Positions 17,722 to 33,512 of a DNA stretch of 36,223 bases are shown here, in pieces. The stretch covers positions 1-36,223 of the forward strand of contig JACPTH010000181.1 in assembly GCA_016192885.1 (NCBI GenBank), read 5' to 3'. Numbering within the stretch: position 1 is the stretch's first letter; each line of letters begins with the position of its first letter. The stretch is from a bacterium. GTDB taxonomy: Bacteria > Muiribacteriota > Ozemobacteria > Ozemobacterales > Ozemobacteraceae. The notes beneath the pieces were generated by a model. It saw only the letters and a program-made list of their open reading frames with translations. It had not been told where the DNA came from and made no database searches. The translations under genes were made by a program, and so were the position numbers.

Positions 17722-18894
17722 TTGTTGAAAATGCTAAAATACTGGCTAATGTCTGCTAATTCTTCATCGTTTAATGAACCCGCAATTCTCTTTCGGATTC
17801 AAAACTACAACTGCGTGAGCGCCGGAGCGCTCTTGGGCGCTTGCCAAGTTCATGGAGTTTCAGATATTCGCCCATTATTTTGGAAGGGGGATTCGCATAT
17901 TCCCAAGGACGTATTTTCCAACAGGGTCTTGTTTATCTATTCGTTCATGGCTTTGCACGTTAAATCCGTTGAAAATGAAATACAGACTTTAAAAAAACTG
18001 GCAAGGCAGGGAGTAGACGGGGAGGGCGAGGAAATTTTCCCTTGGATAACCGAAAGGTGGTTAAAGGAAAAACTATCTCTTGGGTTGATTACATCCAAGA
18101 GGGATTCTGTGGATATTGACCGATATCCGGGATTCCATTTTTCAACAGGTTATCTTCCTCCCATTGAGATCACCCGAGGATGCACTTATTGTTGTACTTT
18201 TTGCGCCGTTCCGCGACTCTATGGCGGAACCATCAGGCATAGGTCTGTCGCGGGAGTGGTGTCGATTGTTGAATCATATCTGAGATTAAAGCCCGATCGA
18301 AAGCGAATAAAATTCTTATCGCCAAACGCATTTGCGTATGGGTCCAAAGATGGAAGAACCCCAAATTTTTCGGCCCTTCATGAGCTTTTGTCTGCCTTAA
18401 AAAAAATGGGAGTTCCCGAAATATGCCTTGGGTCTTTCCCTTCCGAAGTTCGCCCCGATTTTGTCACAAAAGAGTTACTAGACCTGGTAGTTCCATTTTT
18501 GTCGAATCGTGTTATAGTGATGGGAGCTCAAACTTACAACGATGAAAAACTTAAAGAAATGCATCGATATCACGATAGAGCCGATGTTGAAAAAGCAATT
18601 CAACTTCTTCGAAAATATGGATTTGTTCCTCATGTGGATTTCATCATCGGACTTCCGGGAGAGACCTTCGAGGAACAAGATAAATTGTTGACTTTTTTTG
18701 AAACTCTGGTTCGAGAGTATGGTATCCGAATCCATTTGCATACTTTTATGCCTCTTCCTGGTACGCCTTGGGAGCGCTATTCTCCGGCGCCTATAGGTGA
18801 AACAGCAAGGCGCGGAATTCAAAATCTTTCAAGCGCAAAGGTTCTTGATGGCTGGTGGGATCATCAGATTGCATACGGAAGGGGAAAACTATGA
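17722..18894 (+). CDS. radical SAM protein (function unknown)
   Basis: CxxxCxxC cluster motif in RGCTYCCTFCAVP, with an upstream N-terminal region and a downstream TIM-barrel-like region. The true start may be ATG 17731 or 17749. Confidence 0.8.
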   Translation: MLKMLKYWLMSANSSSFNEPAILFRIQNYNCVSAGALLGACQVHGVSDIRPLFWKGDSHIPKDVFSNRVLFIYSFMALHVKSVENEIQTLKKLARQGVDGEGEEIFPWITERWLKEKLSLGLITSKRDSVDIDRYPGFHFSTGYLPPIEITRGCTYCCTFCAVPRLYGGTIRHRSVAGVVSIVESYLRLKPDRKRIKFLSPNAFAYGSKDGRTPNFSALHELLSALKKMGVPEICLGSFPSEVRPDFVTKELLDLVVPFLSNRVIVMGAQTYNDEKLKEMHRYHDRADVEKAIQLLRKYGFVPHVDFIIGLPGETFEEQDKLLTFFETLVREYGIRIHLHTFMPLPGTPWERYSPAPIGETARRGIQNLSSAKVLDGWWDHQIAYGRGKL

Positions 18895-19814
18895 CAGGAA
18901 TTCATACCCCCTTGGAAAATATTCAGCCAAAGAGAAAAAACTGGATTTTTCGGCACCGAAGGAAAATTTACGGTGGCATGGTTTGGGGAAGCTTTTTCAT
19001 TTGCTTGTACATTTTAAAAACTTTTATATCACTAATGCTACTGACTTTTATCATGAGCTATTCAATCAATTCCCTTGTTAATTTCTTGCGCTCAAAATTT
19101 TCGTGGCCTCGCTGGGGAATTATTTTGGTGGTTTACGGGGTTCTTGGAATTTTAATGCTTGGAGTTGGAATGATAGTCATTCCGAATGTATATCATGAAG
19201 GACAAACGCTTTCACGGGAGATTCCCCAGGTTTTACTCAGGGAAATTCCCAAAGCAAAAGAAAAGCTCCCAGAACAACTTCAGGTTTTGGTCAATTCTCC
19301 GGAGTTTTCCAAATTTATTGAAGGGCTAGACCTCGAAAACACGGTCCGAGAGAATTTTGGGGACATTTTACAAGCCGTTACTGTTTTTTTTCGTGATTTA
19401 CTGCGGATTTCTTTTTACTTGATTCTTTCGATGATTTTTAGCTTTCTGATTCTCTGGGACCTAGAAAGGCTAAAACGCGATGTAAAAAGTTTAAGAGACA
19501 CAAGGCTTCAAGGGGTGTACCATACCATAACTCCCCATTTGGTGCGACTAAGCGATATACTTGGAAAAGCTTTTGAGGCGCAAATTGTTATTGCCTTTGC
19601 AAATACCGTTCTAACGTTAATCGGTTTAACGTTTTTAGGAATCCCGAGCAAGCTCTTTTTAAGCGTTTTTGTTTTTTTGTGCAGTTTTATCCCCGTTTTA
19701 GGAGTTTTTATCTCCACCATCCCAATTTGCTTGGTCAGAAAAAACTTCAAAAGTCCGCTTGACCAGAGATTAATTCCATGTTACTGTACTTTTCGAGATT
19801 GGGGAGTCGTCTAA
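18891..19814 (+). CDS. AI-2E (PerM/UPF0118) family transporter, C-terminally truncated
   Basis: The ATG overlaps the radical SAM stop (ATGA). TM layout and the FIPVLGVFISTIP motif fit AI-2E transporters. The last two or so TM segments and the conserved C-terminus are missing. The reading frame runs into tRNA-Gln (19800). Confidence 0.65.
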   Translation: MTGIHTPLENIQPKRKNWIFRHRRKIYGGMVWGSFFICLYILKTFISLMLLTFIMSYSINSLVNFLRSKFSWPRWGIILVVYGVLGILMLGVGMIVIPNVYHEGQTLSREIPQVLLREIPKAKEKLPEQLQVLVNSPEFSKFIEGLDLENTVRENFGDILQAVTVFFRDLLRISFYLILSMIFSFLILWDLERLKRDVKSLRDTRLQGVYHTITPHLVRLSDILGKAFEAQIVIAFANTVLTLIGLTFLGIPSKLFLSVFVFLCSFIPVLGVFISTIPICLVRKNFKSPLDQRLIPCYCTFRDWGVV

Positions 19815-19873
19815 TGGTAGGACGACAGACTCTGGATCTGTCTATTGGGGTTCGAGTCCCTGCTCCCCAGCCA
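19800..19873 (+). tRNA. tRNA-Gln (anticodon CUG), CCA encoded
   Basis: Manual cloverleaf. Acceptor tggggag/ctcccca, D stem gtct/ggac, anticodon stem acaga/tctgt with loop ctCTGga, T loop ttcgagt, discriminator G plus CCA. It has the U1-A72/G73 pattern typical of bacterial tRNA-Gln. Confidence 0.9.
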
Positions 19874-19879
19874 AGGATT

Positions 19880-19953
19880 GGCCCCATGGTGTAACCGGCT
19901 AACACGCAGCCCTCTCAAGGCTGAGAGCGGGGGTTCGAGTCCCCCTGGGGCTA
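19880..19953 (+). tRNA. tRNA-Glu (anticodon CUC), CCA not encoded
   Basis: Manual cloverleaf. Acceptor ggcccca/tggggct (G1-U72), D stem gtgt/acac, anticodon stem cagcc/ggctg with loop ctCTCaa, T stem ggggg/ccccc with loop ttcgagt. A T-run follows. Confidence 0.87.
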
Positions 19954-20207
19954 TTTTTTATTTGTTCAAGAAAATCTTATTACGTCTAGTAACCCGCAAT
20001 TAACCCGCTGATGAAGCGGGTTATCCCCGAAACTCCTGTCTAACAAAATCCAAGCTTTTTCTATGTTCCCCCTGAAACTATTTATAAAATTTAAAGATGT
20101 TCCATGATGCCGCTATTTTGATTAGGGTTTGAAATTATCTCAAAAAACCATTTGGGTAAATTGAAATCGACCACTTTTCGTTAACTGTCCCCCAACCAAC
20201 GGTTTGC

Positions 20208-20635
20208 TCATGCCGCCTTGGTAATGTCTACGATGATGCGTGATCCAAGAGGTTTCAGAACTTCCTCAATGCTTCCGATATGGGTTCTATGCTTGGGATT
20301 CAGCATTCTTTGAAGAGTGGTAAGCGGCAATCCAAGTTTTTTGGATAACGCAAGGCAACTTAATCCGGTATTCTTCCATGCAATATATAGAGCAACTTTG
20401 GCGGCAATAAGAGAGCTTGGAGAAACCATGTGGATTGCTTTTTTGAAGGCATGGGAATTTCTTCCACGAGTTTTATTCTTACTGCCAGAGCTTCATCAAG
20501 GCAATCAATAGCTTCCATTAAAGCTTCCTGAATAGATTTGCCATCGGTGACGGCTCCCTTGATGTCAACGAATTTTACCAGAAAATATCCGGTCTTATCT
20601 TTGGAGATGGTAACCGGAAACGAAAGCCTATTCAT
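20208..20635 (-). pseudogene. hicB: HicB-family antitoxin, frameshifted (N-terminal HicB fold and C-terminal HTH are in different frames)
   Basis: ORF 20360-20635 encodes MNRLSFPVTISKDKTGYFLVKFVDIKGAVTDGKSIQEALMEAIDCLDEALAVRI..EEIPMPSKKQ. ORF 20208-20429 in another frame encodes (H)MVSPSSLIAAKVALYIAWKNTGLSCLALSKKLGLPLTTLQRMLNPKH (Xre-type HTH). The junction lies at or near a 6-nt homopolymer (20439-20444). Confidence 0.75.
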
Positions 20636-20640
20636 CTCCT

Positions 20641-20858
20641 TTATCTCAAAATATCCTTTTTGGTTATTCCCAAATCAGTAAGCATAGCCATTAGAATGCC
20701 TTCCCCAATTTCCTTGGTTCGATCTTTTACGTGGTTCGATTAAATCCAAAGAATATCGTTCCGTGACTTCCCTTCCCATGAATTTTATTGAAACAAAAGG
20801 AAATACCTCTTTCCTTGGAAAGTTTTTTTATTCTTCTCAGGAATTCATTACCATTCAT
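20641..20858 (-). pseudogene. hicA: HicA-family toxin, frameshifted
   Basis: My translation of the minus strand gives MNGNEFLRRIKKLSKERGISFCFNKIHGKGSHGTIFFGFNRTT then a stop. The frame offset by one missing nucleotide continues VKDRTKEIGEGILMAMLTDLGITKKDILR then a stop. Together these form a full-length HicA-like sequence (GKGSHG ... LGI). The gene ends 5 nt before the hicB start. The shift lies around 20727-20735. Confidence 0.75.
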
Positions 20859-26272: not shown

Positions 26273-27148
26273 ATGAAAAGTGGAATTGTTTTAGTTGTTT
26301 CCGCGAGCCTTTCGAACGATGACCTATGTTCTTCTCCTTTCAATTTGCACCCCGAAGAATTTTTTCTTGCGAGTTATGATTCGTTGTGTTTCCTAGGGTT
26401 CTCACGGTTTTGTTTGGTTATCCTTCACGAGCCCGACCCTGATATTTGCACAAAACTTTCGTTGGGAATTCGGGATTCAAGACTTCTTGAAGGCATGTGG
26501 AACTTGGTTGCTCTTTCCAATTCACCCGTGCGAATTATTTCTTCGCCTAAAAACCGTCCTTTAAAATCTTTGCTTGACCTAGGCGTTGAGCCATTTTCTC
26601 CGTCAGAAGTTCGGGATTTTTTATCATCTCTTTCGTCCCCAAAAAATTCCGCTTCGTTTAACCCAAAAAAGCAACCCTTGCTTACCGCTGACGATATCCG
26701 TGAAATGCACAAAATGGGAAAACTGCGATTAGAACCAGGGGCTCTCCTTACCGAATGGGCAAAAGAGGTTGCAGTTACCTTAGGAATTAGTTTGCCTGAA
26801 AAGCAAGCCAATTTTGTTCTGGCTTTTTTGAGCACTCCTACCCGTGCTTCCCTGATAGATTTATCGGAAAAAATTCACTCTTGGAGTCGCGCGAATCCAA
26901 AACTCCTTTTTGTGGTTCCATCCCCACAAATTCCCCTTTTTCGTGAACTTTTTCCGTCAATTTCTTCGCGCCTAGTGGCCCCCGCCTTTCATTGGGCGGA
27001 ATCCGGAGCCTTTACCGGAGAGGTTTCGCTTGGAATGATTCAAGATGCGGGGTGTTTTGGAGCAATTATGCCGCATTCCAAGCCTTTTTTTACAAAAGAG
27101 CAGATTCTCCAAATTGCGTCGCATTGGAGCATTCTCATCGATAATTAA
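26273..27148 (+). CDS. BMC-locus protein: unrecognised N-terminal region, EutQ-N-terminus-like motif, partial triosephosphate-isomerase-like segment
   Basis: C-terminus: LLFVVPSPQIPLF...LVAPAFHWAESGAFTGEVSLGMIQDAGCFGAIMPHSKPFFTKEQ. It aligns by eye with TIM residues about 35-120 (vaiaPP...lGAQNv....SGAFTGEtS..ML.D.G..yviiGHSERR). Residues about 134-175 (LLTADDIREMHKMGKLRLEPGALLTEWAKEVAVTLGISL) resemble the EutQ N-terminal module. Confidence 0.6.
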   Translation: MKSGIVLVVSASLSNDDLCSSPFNLHPEEFFLASYDSLCFLGFSRFCLVILHEPDPDICTKLSLGIRDSRLLEGMWNLVALSNSPVRIISSPKNRPLKSLLDLGVEPFSPSEVRDFLSSLSSPKNSASFNPKKQPLLTADDIREMHKMGKLRLEPGALLTEWAKEVAVTLGISLPEKQANFVLAFLSTPTRASLIDLSEKIHSWSRANPKLLFVVPSPQIPLFRELFPSISSRLVAPAFHWAESGAFTGEVSLGMIQDAGCFGAIMPHSKPFFTKEQILQIASHWSILIDN

Positions 27149-27255
27149 GCTCATAGACCTTCGGAATTCGAGCGCGTTCTCGGTCGGTGATAGAGAAGCG
27201 GTTTTTGTTTCAATTGATGACGTTGAGAAGGGGAGAGTTTCAGGATGGCTGAACG

Positions 27256-27900
27256 ATGATTGATGAAAATACTGTAAAAGTCATAGTAGCCCAAGTAATA
27301 GAGCAAATAGCTTTAAAGGAGCGTGCTCGTTCGGGGGCTGTAACGGTTGGGATAAGCAATAGGCATATCCACCTTTGCGAAGCTGATTTAGAGTCCCTTT
27401 TCGGCACTGGGCATAAGTTGAAAACCTTTAGAGAGCTTTCACAACCGGGCCAATTTGCCGCCGAGGAATGCCTTACCGTCGCGGGGCCTAAGGGCGTTAT
27501 CGAAAAAGTTCGAATCCTTGGGCCAATCCGAAAGCAAACCCAGGTGGAAATCTCGATTACAGACTCCTTTTCGTTGGGAATTCCTCCTATTGTTCGCGAT
27601 TCCGGAGATGTTAAAGGAACTCCGGGATGCGTTCTTATCGGCCCCAAAGGTGCGGTAAATCTTAAGGAAGGCCTTATTGTTGCTTCCCGTCATATCCACC
27701 TTAATTCGAAGGATGCCGAAAAGTTTGGTTTGAAAGATATGGATCGAGTATCGGTGAAGAGTTTTGGGTCGAGGTCCCTGATTTTCAATAATGTTCTTGT
27801 CCGAGTCAGCGATCAGTTTGCCTTAGACTTTCACCTAGATTGCGATGAAGCCAACGCAGCATGTTTGAGGAACGGCGACAAACTTGAAATTATTGGTTAA
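27256..27900 (+). CDS. pduL: phosphate acyltransferase PduL
   Basis: Motifs: VGISNRHIHLCEADLESLFG, QPGQFAAEE, VRILGPIRKQTQVEIS, ASRHIHLNSKDAEKFG, VLVRVSDQFALDFHLDCDEANAA. The amphipathic N-terminus ENTVKVIVAQVIEQI looks like an encapsulation peptide. Confidence 0.93.
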   Translation: MIDENTVKVIVAQVIEQIALKERARSGAVTVGISNRHIHLCEADLESLFGTGHKLKTFRELSQPGQFAAEECLTVAGPKGVIEKVRILGPIRKQTQVEISITDSFSLGIPPIVRDSGDVKGTPGCVLIGPKGAVNLKEGLIVASRHIHLNSKDAEKFGLKDMDRVSVKSFGSRSLIFNNVLVRVSDQFALDFHLDCDEANAACLRNGDKLEIIG

Positions 27901-27951
27901 TTCAGAAAATGAATTGTTTATTTTTAGAATTTATCTTCTTAGGAGGTTTTC

Positions 27952-28257
27952 ATGCAAGAGGCTCTCGGAATGATTGAGACAAAAGGTTTGGTGGCAATGA
28001 TTGAAGCAAGCGACGCGATGGTAAAGGCGGCCAATGTGCGATTGGTCGGTTGGGAAAAAATCGGGTCGGGATTTGTCACGGCAATAGTTCGCGGGGATGT
28101 CGCCGCGGTAAAAGCCGCTACTGATGCCGGCGCGGCTGCCGCAAAAAAAATCGGAGAATTAGTATGCGTCCATGTAATTCCGCGCCCGCACACAAATCTC
28201 GACGAAGTTCTTCCGATTCGCGAAAACACAACCTCAACCAGTACGACTAAAAAATAA
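27952..28257 (+). CDS. BMC-H shell protein (PduA/EutM-type hexamer)
   Basis: [27 protein letters not shown]...[24 protein letters not shown]...[17 protein letters not shown]. Confidence 0.96.
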
Positions 28258-28274
28258 GCCTTTCGGAATTCTAG

Positions 28275-28547
28275 ATGATTCTTGGGAAAACTTGCGGAAC
28301 TGTTGTTTGTACCCGTAAAGATGAAAGACTTAACGGGATGAAATTTTTAATTGTCGAAGAATTAGCGGTAAATACTCAAAAACCAACCGGGAACCATCAT
28401 ATCGCGGTTGATGCCGTCGGCGCCGGAGCATCCGAGACGATTTTGATGGTTTCCGGAAGTTCCGCGCGCCTTACAGGCCGAACAATAAATTGTCCTGTCG
28501 ATGCCGCAATTTGCGGAATCGTTGATGAAATTACCATGGACAAGTAA
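28275..28547 (+). CDS. BMC-P vertex protein (EutN/CcmL/PduN family)
   Basis: MILGKTCGTVVCTRKDERLNGMKFLIVEEL...AVDAVGAGASETILMVSGSSAR. Confidence 0.93.
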   Translation: MILGKTCGTVVCTRKDERLNGMKFLIVEELAVNTQKPTGNHHIAVDAVGAGASETILMVSGSSARLTGRTINCPVDAAICGIVDEITMDK

Positions 28548-28674: not shown

Positions 28675-29963
28675 ATGCCGTTTTCAAAAGACGAAGTTAA
28701 TCTCATCGTTTCGGAAGTTCTTAAGCATATTAATACTTTGCAATCGACCAAGGTTGCCGCGGTAGAAAGCGCCTGCGAGAACGGAATTTTTGAGAACATA
28801 GATGACGCCATTCGATCCGCCGCGGAAGCCCAAAAGAAACTTGTAACCCTTTCTCTAAGTACTAGGTCAGCTATTATCGAAAATATGCGGAAGCGGGTTT
28901 TCGGCAAAATAGAAGAACTTTCCCGACTTGGGGTTGAAGAAACAGGCTATGGACGCGTGGAAGATAAGATTCAAAAAAACACGTTGGCCGTAAAAAAAAC
29001 TCCGGGAATTGAAGATCTTCAACCTGTCGCTTATTCCGGAGATCATGGGTTGACTCTCGTTGAACAAGCTCCTTACGGCGTTATCGGAGCGATTACTCCC
29101 TCAACCAACCCTTCCGAAACGGTAATTTGCAATTCGATCGGGATGATAGCCGCCGGCAATTCGGTCGTTTTTGCCCCGCATCCGGCCGCTGCTCGCGTGA
29201 GTCATTTGGCCGTTACTACTCTTCATGAAGCCATTGTCGAAGCAGGGGGCCCGCGAAACCTCGTCGTTTCAGTTTCAAAGCCAAGCATTGAATCCGCCCA
29301 AGTTCTAATGACCCATCCTGGAATCCGTCTTTTGGTGGTTACGGGCGGGCCTGCGGTCGTTGCGGCCGCCGCAAAAAGCGGCAAAAGATTTGTTGCCGCG
29401 GGGCCGGGAAACCCGCCTGCCGTTGTCGACGAGACCGCAGATCTTAAGAAAGCCGCCCGGGACATAGTCTCCGGCGCAACTTTAGATAACAACGTTTTAT
29501 GCATTGCCGAAAAAGAGATTATCGTGGTTGAATCGGTTGCGGATGAATTAAAAAGGAACTTGCTAGTATCGGGCGCTTATGAAGCTACCGCTCGTGAAAT
29601 CATGATGCTCGAAAAGCTGGTAATTGATCCAAAGACACACGGGCCTAACCGCAAATTTGTCGGGAAAAACGCCTCCGTGATTTTGGATGCTCGGCGGTAG
29701 ATTTGGCGGTAAAAGTCGAACACGGTTACCATCATACCGCGGTTATGCATAGCAAGAATTTAGACAATTTGCATTTAATGGCAAGTCGATGCAATTGTTC
29801 CATTTTTGTAAAGAATGGGCCTAGTTACGCAGGTTTGGGGTTGGGCGGCGAAGGTTTCACAACTTTTACCATTGCCTCTCCGACCGGGGAAGGCCTTACC
29901 AGCGCACGCTCGTTTACAAGGCAGCGGCGTTGCGTTTTGGTTGATTATTTCAGAATCGTGTGA
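28675..29963 (+). pseudogene. CoA-acylating aldehyde dehydrogenase (PduP/EutE type), disrupted by an internal deletion plus frameshift
   Basis: ORF 28675-29700 matches EutE/PduP from the N-terminal encapsulation-like helix (DEVNLIVSEVLKHI) through PSTNP, GNSVVFAPHPAA, GPGNPPAVVDETADL and the catalytic NNVLCIAEKE. It stops at ...FVGKNASVILDARR. ORF 29703-29963, in another frame, carries the family C-terminus: (AVD)LAVKVEHGYHHTAVMHS...SIFVKNGPSYAGLGLGGEGFTTFTIASPTGEGLTSARSFTRQRRCVLVDYFRIV. About 40 residues, including the ELMMPVLPVVRV-type segment, are absent. Confidence 0.85.
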
Positions 29964-31270
29964 AAAATAAATTTCCCGATAAGGTTGAGGATTTAGGCAT
30001 TGTTGGCTGTGGTGGCGCGGGGTTTCCCACTCACGTAAAGCTTTCCGCCAAAGATGTTACTTGTTTTATTGTGAATGCCGCGGAATGTGAGCCTTTGCTC
30101 CACAAAGATAAGGAAATCCTAAAACACCATACCGCGGATTTTTTTAAAGGTTTGGAAACCGCGATGAGTATGACCGGCGCCAAAGTAACCCATATTGCGG
30201 TGAAGGAAAAGTATTCCGAGCTCATTTCCCAATTGAAATCATTTTGCTCGAATCCAAAAATTTCGGTTTTTCCGCTCGGAGATTTTTATCCGTCGGGTGA
30301 CGAGTTCGAACTTGTGTATGAAATCACTAAAAAACTAATACCTTTTGGCGGGATTCCTTTGCAAATCGGTTGCGTTGTAAATAACGTTGAGACTCTTCTC
30401 CACCTTGGCAGAGGAAAACCTTTTACCTCAAAGTTTTTAACGGTAGCAGGAGCGGTTCCAAAACCGGTTTCCATCGAAGTTCCTCTTGGAATTACCGTTC
30501 GCGAAGCTATCTCACTCTCCGGTCAAATCGATCTTTGCGACATGGCGATTATTGACGGAGGTCCGATGATGGGGAGGATAGTTTCACCTGAAAACCTAGT
30601 CACAAAAACTTGTGGAGGCCTTGTGGTTCTTCCAAAGGAACACCCGTTGATCGTAAAAATGACCCGACCGGCTCGCCGGAATCAGCTTATTGGGCGGGCA
30701 GGTTGCGATCAATGTACGGATTGCACCGAGCTTTGTCCAAGAAGGTTGCTAGGCTATCCAATTCGACCTCATAAAGCTATGCGCACAAATTTGTTTACCC
30801 GCGGGGATTCAAGCGATTATTCCCTTGAGTCTATTTTTTGTTCAGAATGCGGAGTTTGTTCGTTATTTGCATGCCCTGAAGCTCTTCCTCCGCGCGAGGT
30901 GACTATTATTGCCAAAAGATATCATCTTAGTCATGGAGCAAAACTTTCCGATTGGCAGGGCGTTCCGCAGGTTCATCCAATGCGGCCAGGTCGAAGAATC
31001 GGAATTCAAAGATTAATTAATTGCCTCGGACTAACCGAATTCGATCGCAAAGCCCCGCTAATACAGGCAAAAATTGACCCGCCACACGTGCGATTGCCCT
31101 TAAAAATGAATTTGGGGGCCCCAGCTCAACCGTCCGTAAAAGTAGGGGATGATGTTACAACCGGTCAGCTAATTGGGATTATTCCCGAACGATCTCTCGG
31201 AGCCAACTTACACGCTTCGATTAGCGGGCGGGTAGTTTCGATTGATGATGCGATAACCATAGAGGCGTAA
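29960..31270 (+). CDS. PduS/RnfC-like flavin and Fe-S oxidoreductase
   Basis: The GTG overlaps the preceding stop (GTGA). GIVGCGGAGFPTHVKL (RnfC/NuoF-type nucleotide site). Two ferredoxin-type motifs, GCDQCTDCTELCP and CSECGVCSLFACP. The C-terminus is a barrel-sandwich-like segment, VKVGDDVTTGQLIG...SISGRVVSID. Confidence 0.85.
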   Translation: MKNKFPDKVEDLGIVGCGGAGFPTHVKLSAKDVTCFIVNAAECEPLLHKDKEILKHHTADFFKGLETAMSMTGAKVTHIAVKEKYSELISQLKSFCSNPKISVFPLGDFYPSGDEFELVYEITKKLIPFGGIPLQIGCVVNNVETLLHLGRGKPFTSKFLTVAGAVPKPVSIEVPLGITVREAISLSGQIDLCDMAIIDGGPMMGRIVSPENLVTKTCGGLVVLPKEHPLIVKMTRPARRNQLIGRAGCDQCTDCTELCPRRLLGYPIRPHKAMRTNLFTRGDSSDYSLESIFCSECGVCSLFACPEALPPREVTIIAKRYHLSHGAKLSDWQGVPQVHPMRPGRRIGIQRLINCLGLTEFDRKAPLIQAKIDPPHVRLPLKMNLGAPAQPSVKVGDDVTTGQLIGIIPERSLGANLHASISGRVVSIDDAITIEA

Positions 31271-31275
31271 GCAGA

Positions 31276-31857
31276 ATGAAAATTCCATCAAGTAAAAGTG
31301 ATAGTTTCCCATTTAAAGCCATTGGATTGATTGAGTTATCCAGCATTGCAATGGGTTTTTTAACCGCCGATGCGATGTTAAAGGCAGCATCGGTTGAAAT
31401 TGTTCTTTCAAGAACCGTCTGTCCCGGAAAATACATCGTTCTAATTTGGGGAGATGTTGCCGCCGTAGAAGCAAGCGTTAGGGCCGGAGTTTCGGTAAGC
31501 CAAGGATATCTTGTGAACGAATTGGTCATTCCCAATATTCACCCCCAAATTTTTCCGGCAATTACCGCCACGAACCCGGTAAAAACTACCGACGCGTTGG
31601 GAGTTCTTGAAACATTTGATGTCGTGTCCACAATCTTAGCCGCTGATGCGTCCGCAAAAGCCGCGAACGTAACTCTTTGCGAAATTCGCCTCGCTATGGC
31701 CCTTGGTGGAAAGGCATTTTATTCCTTTACAGGCGACGTTGCCGCGGTAGAAGCCGCAATCGCCGCCGGAAGAGAGGTTTTGGAAAGCAACGGTCTTATC
31801 GTAAATTGGGTTGTTATTCCAAGGCCTCGTGAAGAACTTTTTGAAGAGTTTGTCTAA
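31276..31857 (+). CDS. BMC-T tandem-domain shell protein, PduT-like
   Basis: Two BMC domains (AIGLIELSSIAMGFLTADAMLKAASV and ALGVLETFDVVSTILAADASAKAANV). The TVCPGKY motif (Cys codon 31420-31422) matches the PduT pore Fe-S ligand position. Confidence 0.9.
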   Translation: MKIPSSKSDSFPFKAIGLIELSSIAMGFLTADAMLKAASVEIVLSRTVCPGKYIVLIWGDVAAVEASVRAGVSVSQGYLVNELVIPNIHPQIFPAITATNPVKTTDALGVLETFDVVSTILAADASAKAANVTLCEIRLAMALGGKAFYSFTGDVAAVEAAIAAGREVLESNGLIVNWVVIPRPREELFEEFV

Positions 31858-32315
31858 TGCCGAAAATAATTCTTGGAGCTGATCACGGAGGTTTTTCCCA
31901 TAAGGAAGAATTAAAACAGCATTTGATTTCTTCGGGATTCGTGATTGAGGACATTGGCGCTCATTCCACCGAGCCGGTTGATTATCCGGATATCGCTTTA
32001 TTGGTCGGGCTTGCCGTTTCGCGAAATCCTCAAGCATTGGGGATAATCATTGATGGAGCGGGAATAGGCTCATGCATGGCCGGCAACAAAATCCCCGGGG
32101 TGCGTGCGGCCTGTTGTAACGATCTTTATACGGCCCGGAATAGCCGAGAGCATAATCACGCCAACGTTCTCACCATGGGAAGCATGGTAATCGGGATTGG
32201 CCTTATGAAGCAAATAGTCGATCTTTGGATAACCACCCAACCCGCTCCCGGTCGCCATGCGAATCGAGTCGATAAGATCATGAAAATTGAATCGGCTTTA
32301 AAAACCCTTGAATAA
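31857..32315 (+). CDS. rpiB: ribose-5-phosphate isomerase B / sugar-phosphate isomerase (RpiB/LacAB family)
   Basis: Motifs: IILGADHGGFSHKEEL, GIGSCMAGNKIPGVRAACC, ARNSREHNHANVLTMG. The start overlaps the BMC-T stop (TAATG). Confidence 0.92.
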   Translation: MPKIILGADHGGFSHKEELKQHLISSGFVIEDIGAHSTEPVDYPDIALLVGLAVSRNPQALGIIIDGAGIGSCMAGNKIPGVRAACCNDLYTARNSREHNHANVLTMGSMVIGIGLMKQIVDLWITTQPAPGRHANRVDKIMKIESALKTLE

Positions 32316-32360
32316 AAGTTAAGGTTAGCAAATTAGAAAAATTGCCCTGAGGAAATTATT

Positions 32361-33512
32361 ATGCGAGCGATTTGTATCGTATTAGATAGCGTCGGAATTG
32401 GCGCAATGCCGGATGCCGCCGAATATGGAGATGAAGGCTCCGCGACTTTGCCCAACCTTTCAAATGCCGCGGGGGGCCTAGAACTTCCTACTTTGGAGCG
32501 GCTAGGTTTGGGAAAAATAGCGCCTATAAAAGGCGTATCCGGAGAAATCCAAGCTGAAGGTTCGCACGGAAAGATGAGGGAGCTTTCGCCGGGAAAGGAT
32601 ACGACCACGGGCCATTGGGAGATGATGGGGATAAAACTGGAACATGCTTTTCCCTTGTTTCCGGACGGGTTCCCGAAAGCTTGGTTGACAAAATTCGAAC
32701 GCGCCATAGGCGTGGAAACATTAGGAAATTACGCCGCCTCCGGAACCGAAATAATAGCGCAGTTGGGCGATGAACATGTAAAAACGAGAAAACCGATAGT
32801 GTATACCTCGGCGGATTCGGTGTTTCAAATCGCCGCTCACGAGGAAATAATCCCCTTGGAAGAACTGTACAAGATTTGCAAAATAGCCCGTGAAATGCTT
32901 GTCCCCCCGGAAATGGGAGTTGGGAGAGTAATCGCCCGACCGTTCATAGGAACATCCGGCGGCTATAAGCGCACCGCTCACCGGCATGATTTTAGCCTTC
33001 TTCCGAGTCAAGACACTTTGCTTGATGTCCTCAATAAGGGCGGGGCGGTTACCTATGGTATCGGAAAAATTTACGATATTTTTGCCGGAAAGGGCGTAAA
33101 CAAGAGCGTTTCAACGGAAGGAAACGTTGCCGGGATGAATAAAACATCCGAAGCTTTAGATCTTGTACGGGAAGGTTTCATTTTCACAAATCTCGTCGAT
33201 TTCGACATGCTGTTTGGCCACCGGCGAGATGTCCTTGGCTACAAAAAAGCCCTGGAAGGATTTGACCAGTGGTTATCCGGTTTTCTTAAAAAATTAGATG
33301 AAAATGATTTGTTAATTATTACCGCCGATCATGGTTGCGACCCGACTTTTCGGGGTTCCGACCACACCAGGGAATATGTTCCCCTTTTATCGTTTAGAAA
33401 AGGTTTCCAAGGGAAAGACTTAGGAGTCCGAAACGGATTTTGGGACGTCGGAGCTTCCATTGCGGCTCATTTAAAGATCCCGTTTGATCGTGGAACTTCG
33501 TTCGTTTTCTAA
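32361..33512 (+). CDS. deoB: phosphopentomutase
   Basis: Motifs: RAICIVLDSVGIGAMPDAAEYGDEGSATL, TTGHWEMMG, VYTSADSVFQIAAHEE, ITADHGCDPT. Confidence 0.95.
   Translation: MRAICIVLDSVGIGAMPDAAEYGDEGSATLPNLSNAAGGLELPTLERLGLGKIAPIKGVSGEIQAEGSHGKMRELSPGKDTTTGHWEMMGIKLEHAFPLFPDGFPKAWLTKFERAIGVETLGNYAASGTEIIAQLGDEHVKTRKPIVYTSADSVFQIAAHEEIIPLEELYKICKIAREMLVPPEMGVGRVIARPFIGTSGGYKRTAHRHDFSLLPSQDTLLDVLNKGGAVTYGIGKIYDIFAGKGVNKSVSTEGNVAGMNKTSEALDLVREGFIFTNLVDFDMLFGHRRDVLGYKKALEGFDQWLSGFLKKLDENDLLIITADHGCDPTFRGSDHTREYVPLLSFRKGFQGKDLGVRNGFWDVGASIAAHLKIPFDRGTSFVF

What the first reader, a model, noticed from the sequence alone, without database searches (positions are those of the whole stretch)
28675..29963. 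The BMC core aldehyde dehydrogenase is split by an internal deletion of about 40 codons plus a frame change
By-eye alignment to E. coli EutE places ...FVGKNASVILDA at ...WVGRDAGKIAAA. The next recognisable residues, AVDLAVKVEHGYHHTAVMHS, match AIALAVKLEGGCHHTAAMHS. The intervening segment, which includes the conserved ELMMPVLPVVRV region, is missing, and the two halves are in different frames. The junction is at about 29685-29705 and the stop at 29698-29700. If real, the organelle's central enzyme is dead and the locus may be decaying, like hicAB and the permease. If it is an artefact, it flags assembly collapse.
Basis: partly seen in the sequence, partly recalled or inferred. Interest (0 to 1): 0.6.

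Follow-up and report, generated by a model that had tools for sequence, protein, structure and literature searches.

The report
Assembly gap splits microcompartment aldehyde dehydrogenase
The microcompartment aldehyde dehydrogenase gene does lack 124 bases and change frame in this sequence, but the same kind of unmarked missing piece hits about one in twenty conserved genes of this fragmented metagenome-assembled genome, so it is almost certainly an assembly error and not a dead enzyme.

Summary
The acylating aldehyde dehydrogenase (AldDH) reads 28675-29691 (339 codons, frame 1), then runs into TAG at 29698-29700. Its last 90 codons resume at 29691-29960 in another frame.

All family relatives compared have one intact open frame (467-474 aa in the nine translated). 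Each carries exactly 124 extra bases (41 codons plus 1) at this point, including the conserved EELLMPVVPLVRV block.

The "decaying locus" reading is not supported.
- The window is the longest scaffold of a 2.7 Mb, 582-piece, 64%-complete assembly. It has 83 N-runs of 1-103 N whose lengths misjudge the true gaps.
- I compared 174 conserved loci with intact relatives. About ten of them (the AldDH included) have N-less junctions missing 59-238 bases with a frame change. These include RNase Y, FeoB and a sigma-54 activator. PNPase is broken at a 3-N gap.
- None of the 174 loci has a single-base frameshift.
- The same test among four good relatives gave 0 of 194.
- Both AldDH pieces still show strong purifying selection.

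Most likely (about 85%) this is a local assembly or scaffold-join error. A genuine recent deletion remains possible (about 10%). Interest is low.

The parts
28675..29691 (+). AldDH N-terminal piece, codons 1-339. It has an amphipathic N-terminal helix (MPFSKDEVNLIVSEVLKHI, encapsulation-peptide-like by inspection) and the catalytic Cys276 in the motif NNVLCIAEKE.
   Evidence: Matches PDB 5jfl residues 61-391, E 3e-99. It is 70-77% identical to intact relatives over residues 1-339. Cys position.
29689..29693 (+). The junction, GC|T|CG. Relatives carry 124 further bases here (41 codons plus 1).
   Evidence: Four references each give 124 nt missing. There is no N in the whole scaffold.
29692..29700 (+). 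Out-of-frame tail Arg-Arg-TAG that ends the N-piece ORF.
29691..29963 (+). AldDH C-terminal piece: 90 codons (SAVDLAVKVEHGYHHTAVMHS...FRIV) plus a TGA stop, in a different frame from the N piece.
   Evidence: Matches PDB 5jfl residues 435-522, E 2.6e-32. It is 87-96% identical to relatives. pN is 0.05-0.08 with synonymous sites saturated.
27256..28547 (+). Upstream locus genes, all intact: PduL phosphotransacylase (27256-27900), BMC-H shell protein (27952-28257) and BMC-P/EutN shell protein (28275-28547).
   Evidence: Full-length Pfam matches. Collinear with relatives.
29960..33512 (+). Downstream locus genes, all intact: PduS/RnfC-like Fe-S flavoprotein (29960-31270), tandem-domain BMC-T (31276-31857), RpiB (31857-32315) and a phosphopentomutase-like metalloenzyme (32361-33512).
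19737..19799 (+). Probable second unmarked missing segment in the window. The AI-2E permease loses homology after ...STIPICLV, 63 nt before tRNA-Gln.
   Evidence: Relatives have about 97 more residues, then tRNA-Gln and tRNA-Glu in the same order.

Best explanation
The gene is an ordinary PduP/EutE-type CoA-acylating aldehyde dehydrogenase. It is the core enzyme of a sugar-phosphate-utilisation-like (SPU-like) microcompartment in a Riflebacteria (Ozemobacteraceae-type) metagenome-assembled genome. In the organism it is most likely intact, at about 472 aa. The 124-base gap plus frame change is most likely a local assembly or scaffold-join error: two contig ends were written together with no Ns, and the bases between them were lost. 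Shown: the exact lesion, its absence in every relative compared, and the genome-wide recurrence of the same lesion type in this one assembly. Inferred: that this particular junction belongs to that class. Reads were not available to test it.
For: 1. The assembly is fragmentary and scaffolded. It has 582 pieces, N50 6.2 kb and 64% completeness. There are 83 N-runs of 1-103 N in 74 scaffolds.
2. N-run lengths misjudge the true gaps and break frames. C20 has 36 N where the relative has about 63 nt. PNPase on C163 has 3 N with about 47-68 nt missing.
3. ORFs from 1.19 Mb of four good relatives were compared with the assembly, giving 174 conserved loci. About ten, the AldDH included, have N-less abutting matches in different frames. 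The missing lengths are 59, 67, about 77, 97, 101, 110, 124 (AldDH), 139, 146 and 238 nt. Where two or four references are available they agree to the base.
4. The affected genes include RNase Y, FeoB, a sigma-54 activator, an AAA ATPase and a glycogen debranching enzyme.
5. None of the 174 loci has a single-base frameshift, so base-level quality is good.
6. The same scan among the four relatives gave 0 of 194 loci. Fisher one-sided p = 5e-4, or 2e-3 for the eight clearest cases.
7. The rate is 0.04-0.05 per kb, which predicts 1.4-1.8 such junctions in this 36-kb scaffold. Two are seen: the AldDH and the permease 3' end.
8. Neither AldDH piece carries another lesion. pN is 0.05-0.19 against saturated synonymous sites. 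All neighbouring locus genes are intact.
9. [quoted passage not shown]
Against: No second assembly of the same species was found. The best protein hits are 77% identical, or 83% for a partial one. The exact N-piece protein is not on record. The metagenome scan found only a 73%-identical relative. The N-less losses (59-238 nt) are larger than the errors seen at N-marked gaps (-22 to +68 nt), so the exact assembler step that made them is not identified. No second aldehyde dehydrogenase or copy of the missing 41 codons is present in the bin. That is expected for an artefact, but it also fits a real deletion.
Confidence: 0.85

Rival explanations
1. A genuine, very recent 124-bp deletion, fixed or at high frequency in the sampled population, has inactivated the core aldehyde dehydrogenase. 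The N fragment would keep Cys276. It would lose the EELLMPV block, the counterpart of the ALDH EEIFGPV cofactor-binding motif, and everything after it. The microcompartment would then be non-functional.
For: The sequence as deposited shows it with no Ns. No other ALDH is present in the bin. hicA/hicB-like remnants about 9 kb upstream appear to carry single-base frameshifts by inspection, so some real pseudogenes may exist.
Against: The same lesion type hits about 6% of conserved genes, including RNase Y and FeoB, while there are no small indels in 174 loci. That spectrum does not fit natural gene decay. Both pieces, and all neighbouring locus genes, are otherwise intact and under purifying selection. 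On rough estimates, the per-gene chance of an artefact (about 6%) far exceeds the prior for a lone deletion of about 100 nt in a conserved gene.
Confidence: 0.1
2. The source population is mixed: a minority deletion allele sits beside an intact majority allele, and the assembler happened to write the deletion path.
For: Assemblers can pick one branch of a variant bubble. This cannot be excluded without reads.
Against: It would need the same coincidence at about ten other conserved genes. Nothing in the bin carries the intact alternative.
Confidence: 0.04
3. This is a natural two-polypeptide or recoded form of the enzyme: N and C parts are made separately, or joined by programmed frameshifting, and the lineage naturally lacks the 41 residues.
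For: A TTG at 29703 could start an 86-aa C fragment.
Against: All nine translated family relatives and the metagenome relative have the segment in one frame. All listed database homologues of comparable length are single proteins of about 465-480 aa. The missing block is among the most conserved parts of the protein. A frameshift would not restore 41 residues.
Confidence: 0.01

Closest known systems
PduP/EutE CoA-acylating aldehyde dehydrogenases of metabolosomes (solved structures: Rhodopseudomonas palustris PduP 5jfl/5jfm/5jfn; also 6gvs and 4c3s)
   Same: Strong end-to-end homology on both sides of the junction. The catalytic Cys sits in NNVLC. The N-terminus has an amphipathic extension. 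The gene lies among shell-protein genes next to PduL.
   Different: As written in this scaffold, the gene lacks 41 codons plus 1 nt, corresponding to about 5jfl residues 394-434, and so changes frame. Relatives do not.
SPU (sugar phosphate utilising) microcompartment loci (PMC11585597; PMC8217296)
   Same: AldDH, PduL (PTAC), a PduS homologue, RpiB-type RPI, a TIM-like protein, and BMC-H/-P/-T shell proteins are all present. A DERA with a long N-terminal extension that starts with an encapsulation-peptide-like helix is present in the genome.
   Different: DERA is not in the main locus. It lies on another scaffold (C345). In five relatives it is likewise on another contig, or about 300 kb from the AldDH gene. 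A phosphopentomutase-like gene follows RpiB. The SPU subtype was not assigned.
Local assembly and scaffolding errors in metagenome-assembled genomes (Chen et al., 'Accurate and Complete Genomes from Metagenomes', bioRxiv 10.1101/808410)
   Same: The consensus sequence has no Ns and breaks genes, in a scaffolded short-read MAG with N-gaps of estimated length.
   Different: The paper identifies such errors by missing read support. Here they are inferred only from comparison with relatives. The assembler used for this genome is unknown.

Membership tests
PduP/EutE-type acylating aldehyde dehydrogenase (Pfam PF00171) | Sequence homology to solved PduP across the cofactor and catalytic domains | tested here: met
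   N piece E 3e-99 to 5jfl residues 61-391. C piece E 2.6e-32 to residues 435-522.
PduP/EutE-type acylating aldehyde dehydrogenase (Pfam PF00171) | Catalytic cysteine in the conserved NNxxC context | tested here: met
   Cys276 in DNNVLCIAEKE aligns with the cysteine of DNNLPCVAEKE in 5jfl; at that position the 5jfn sequence reads X.
PduP/EutE-type acylating aldehyde dehydrogenase (Pfam PF00171) | A single uninterrupted reading frame of about 465-475 aa that contains the EELxMPVxP block | tested here: not met
   The scaffold lacks 124 nt, and the two parts are in different frames. This is judged to be an assembly defect rather than a property of the gene.
PduP/EutE-type acylating aldehyde dehydrogenase (Pfam PF00171) | N-terminal encapsulation peptide | tested here: inconclusive
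   An amphipathic MPFSKDEVNLIVSEVLKHI lies ahead of the region that aligns with the catalytic core. This is by inspection only; no helix prediction or binding test was done.
SPU-type bacterial microcompartment locus | [quoted passage not shown] | tested here: met
   A DeoC domain lies on G000 C345:3750-4343, inside an ORF of about 495 aa with an N-terminal extension. It is not in the window, so linkage to this locus is inferred.
SPU-type bacterial microcompartment locus | Shell proteins plus accessory RPI, PTAC, PduS homologue and TPI | tested here: met
   Pfam matches to BMC, EutN_CcmL, LacAB_rpiB, PTAC and Complex1_51K/RnfC_N/Fer4, plus a partial TIM match. Relatives also show only the partial TIM match.
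Genuine pseudogene (natural deletion) | Reads span the junction with normal support | not testable with these tools
Genuine pseudogene (natural deletion) | Further signs of relaxed selection in the gene or locus | tested here: not met
   There are no other stops or indels. pN is 0.05-0.19 with saturated pS. The neighbouring genes are intact.
Local assembly / scaffold-join error | The same lesion type recurs across the assembly, including housekeeping genes, and is absent from control genomes | tested here: met
   About 10 of 174 loci against 0 of 194, p = 5e-4. RNase Y and FeoB are among the N-less cases; PNPase is broken at a 3-N gap.
Local assembly / scaffold-join error | The assembly is scaffolded and its gap sizes are unreliable | tested here: met
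   There are 83 N-runs of 1-103 N. The C20 and C163 gaps are too short and out of frame.
Local assembly / scaffold-join error | No perfectly matching read crosses the junction | not testable with these tools

The most novel reading that the evidence does not exclude
The 124-bp loss is real and recent. This Riflebacteria population would then carry an otherwise intact SPU-like microcompartment locus whose only aldehyde dehydrogenase has just been knocked out, a natural snapshot of the first step in organelle loss.
Probability: 0.1. Interest if true: 0.3.

Novelty: not a real feature. Interest (0 to 1): 0.08.

Why it matters
This finding matters mainly as a warning. Taken at face value, the gene would be annotated as a pseudogene and the organism scored as lacking a working microcompartment. 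Roughly one in twenty conserved genes in this assembly has an unmarked missing piece of 60-240 bases. Every "split", "truncated" or "decaying" gene seen in this genome, the permease in this window included, should be read with that in mind. Completeness estimates and pathway calls for this species representative are probably too low.

Tried and rejected
- I looked for an independent assembly of the same species and found none. The exact-protein look-up returned nothing. The 5.8-billion-protein search gave a best hit of 77% identity, or 83% for a partial one. A wobble-tolerant DNA pattern scan of metagenome contigs found only a 73%-identical, intact relative.
- I looked for the missing 41 codons or a second AldDH elsewhere in the bin. 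There are none. The shortest scaffold is 1006 nt, so a small orphan contig would have been dropped anyway.
- I looked for microhomology at the deletion ends. Only one shared base (T at 29691) can be asserted. Relatives are too diverged (about 72% nt identity) to reconstruct the ancestral flanks.
- A natural split or two-polypeptide form is rejected, because every relative compared is single-frame.
- Genome-wide true decay is rejected. The lesion spectrum has only 59-238-nt losses, no small indels, and includes housekeeping genes.
- I considered whether operator masking explains the Ns. It does not, because the N-runs do not preserve length or frame.
- Pfam support for hicA/hicB is weak: HicB_lk_antitox E 6.6e-4, below the cut-off, and nothing for HicA.
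- Whether the TIM-like gene's C-terminal tail has shifted frame could not be settled, because that tail is poorly conserved.

Full report
**The observation.** The ORF at 28675-29700 encodes 341 residues ending ...FVGKNASVILDARR, followed by TAG at 29698-29700. A second frame, open from 29652 to 29963, reads ...SAVDLAVKVEHGYHHTAVMHS...FRIV. Against solved structures, the first piece matches Rhodopseudomonas palustris PduP (5jfl) residues 61-391 at E 3e-99. The second piece matches residues 435-522 at E 2.6e-32.

**Exact size of the loss.** A DNA search in 40 relatives gave two-part matches in the family relatives; in every pair I checked, the relative has 124 more bases than the window between the parts. 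In nine relatives that I translated, the gene is one open frame of 467-474 aa with no stops. The N and C parts are in the same frame, separated by 41 codons, for example IGVKVPDDIRMVLCEVGPDHPFVVEELLMPVVPLVRVRDVH. In the window, the Ala339 codon (29689-29691) and the first codon of the C piece (29691-29693) share one base. The loss is therefore 123+1 = 124 nt, and the junction is GC|T|CG. Four references each give 124. A further relative from a metagenome also carries the extra 124 nt. From general knowledge of the ALDH superfamily, the missing block lies about 90-95 residues after the catalytic Cys276. It corresponds to the EEIFGPV cofactor-binding motif, so a protein made from this sequence would be inactive.

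**Context.** Names attached to the closest database homologues place the genome in Riflebacteria/Ozemobacteraceae. The gene sits in a microcompartment locus with this order:
- a TIM-like protein
- PduL
- BMC-H
- BMC-P
- AldDH
- a PduS/RnfC-like Fe-S flavoprotein
- a tandem BMC-T
- RpiB
- a phosphopentomutase-like enzyme

This order is conserved in family relatives, and every other gene matches full length. The set fits the SPU microcompartments described in PMC11585597. Their signature enzyme DERA is present in this genome on another scaffold (C345). There it sits inside an ORF of about 495 aa whose N-terminus looks like an encapsulation helix. In five relatives DERA also lies away from the main locus.

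**Is the loss biological?** The window is the whole of the longest scaffold of an assembly with 2.7 Mb, 582 pieces, N50 6.2 kb and 64% completeness. The assembly holds 83 N-runs of 1 to 103 N in 74 scaffolds, the mark of a scaffolder that writes estimated gap lengths. Those estimates are unreliable. On C20, 36 Ns stand where a relative has about 63 nt, and the frames differ on either side. In PNPase on C163, 3 Ns stand where about 47-68 more bases are missing.

**Genome-wide scan.** I took 1.19 Mb from four good relatives and compared their ORFs with the whole assembly by tblastn. Of 174 conserved loci, about ten have two abutting matches in different frames with reference sequence missing between them and no N:

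| Scaffold | Missing (nt) | Gene | Note |
|---|---|---|---|
| C165 | 59 | ABC_transp_aux protein | |
| C216 | 67 | AAA ATPase | |
| C301 | ~77 | not named | less clear |
| C266 | 97 | RNase Y | two references agree |
| C388 | 101 | TPR protein | two references agree |
| C85 | 110 | 1456-aa protein (family not determined) | |
| C235 | 124 | the AldDH | four references agree |
| C177 | 139 | FeoB | |
| C561 | 146 | glycogen debranching enzyme | less clear |
| C173 | 238 | sigma-54 activator | two references agree |

Not one of the 174 loci has a simple one-base frameshift, so base calling is good and the defects are structural. The same scan among the four relatives themselves gave 0 of 194 loci. 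The only splits there came from spurious antisense ORFs or in-frame indels. Fisher's test gives p = 5e-4, or 2e-3 for the eight clearest cases.

**Why this points to an artefact.** A spectrum made only of 60-240-nt losses, blind to reading frame and hitting housekeeping genes, with perfectly conserved sequence up to each junction, is not how genes decay. It is how unmarked local assembly or scaffold-join errors look. Such errors are described for metagenome scaffolds in bioRxiv 10.1101/808410. The rate of 0.04-0.05 per kb predicts 1.4-1.8 such junctions in this 36-kb scaffold.

**The second junction in the window.** The AI-2E permease (18855-19814) loses homology after ...STIPICLV at about 19736, only 63 nt before tRNA-Gln. 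Relatives have about 97 further residues and then the same tRNA-Gln/tRNA-Glu pair. About 250-270 nt are therefore missing while synteny is kept.

**Support from within the gene.** Against seven relatives, synonymous sites are saturated (pS 0.78-0.98). Non-synonymous differences are 0.16-0.19 in the N piece and only 0.05-0.08 in the C piece, and there are no other lesions. If the deletion were real, it would have to be extremely recent.

**What could not be done.** No independent assembly of the same species was found. The bin holds no second aldehyde dehydrogenase and no copy of the missing 41 codons. That is uninformative, given 64% completeness and a 1-kb length cut-off.

**Verdict.** The interpretation that the organelle's core enzyme is dead and the locus is decaying is not supported. 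The most probable explanation (about 85%) is an unmarked assembly error, one of many in this genome. A real recent deletion keeps about 10%, a minority allele written by the assembler about 4%, and a natural split form about 1%. The finding is of low biological interest, but it is a useful flag on the quality of this species-representative genome.

Noticed in passing
window 18855-19873: The AI-2E family permease stops matching relatives after ...STIPICLV (about 19736), 63 nt before tRNA-Gln (19800-19873) and tRNA-Glu (19879-19954). Relatives have about 97 more residues and then the same two tRNAs. About 250-270 nt are missing with synteny kept, probably another unmarked assembly junction.
   Followed up: yes
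G000 scaffolds C165, C173, C177, C216, C266, C388, C85, C561, C301 (N-less); C20, C163, C330, C56 (with Ns): Conserved genes are broken by missing segments of 59-238 nt with a frame change and no Ns. They include RNase Y, FeoB, a sigma-54 activator, an AAA ATPase and a glycogen debranching enzyme. PNPase and others are broken at N-gaps of the wrong length. About 6% of the conserved loci tested are affected, so gene calls and completeness for this genome are unreliable.
   Followed up: yes
window 20208-20858 (- strand): This looks like a hicA/hicB toxin-antitoxin remnant. The hicA-like ORF (20727-20858) stops after ...GFNRTT, and its tail KDRTKEIGEGILMAMLTDLGITKKDILR continues in another frame. 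The hicB-like N part (20360-20635) and an HTH-like C part (20208-20429) are also in different frames. Both look like one-base shifts. Pfam support is weak (HicB_lk_antitox E 6.6e-4, nothing for HicA).
   Followed up: partly
window 26273-27263: The first gene of the locus (291 aa) matches only positions 33-92 of the 245-position TIM profile. The 355-aa orthologue in a relative also matches only positions 49-89, so the partial TIM domain is natural to this family. The window copy is about 55-65 aa shorter than the orthologues. A possible C-terminal tail (...REAVFVSIDDVEKG...) lies in another frame, ending at the PduL start. The tail is too poorly conserved to decide.
   Followed up: partly
G000 C345:3750-4343 (- strand), ORF of about 495 aa: The DERA (DeoC family) of this genome sits on a separate scaffold. 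It carries an N-terminal extension of about 270 aa that begins with an encapsulation-peptide-like helix (MDGIVEKIAREVMLKLKS). In five relatives the DeoC domain also lies in an open frame of about 500-670 aa, on another contig or about 300 kb from the AldDH gene. This suggests a satellite-encoded signature enzyme for an SPU-like microcompartment.
   Followed up: partly
window 29960-31270: The PduS-like protein has the Complex1_51K FMN domain at its N-terminus and the RnfC barrel-sandwich domain (RnfC_N profile) at its C-terminus (residues 368-431). That is the reverse of the position the Pfam name implies.
   Followed up: no
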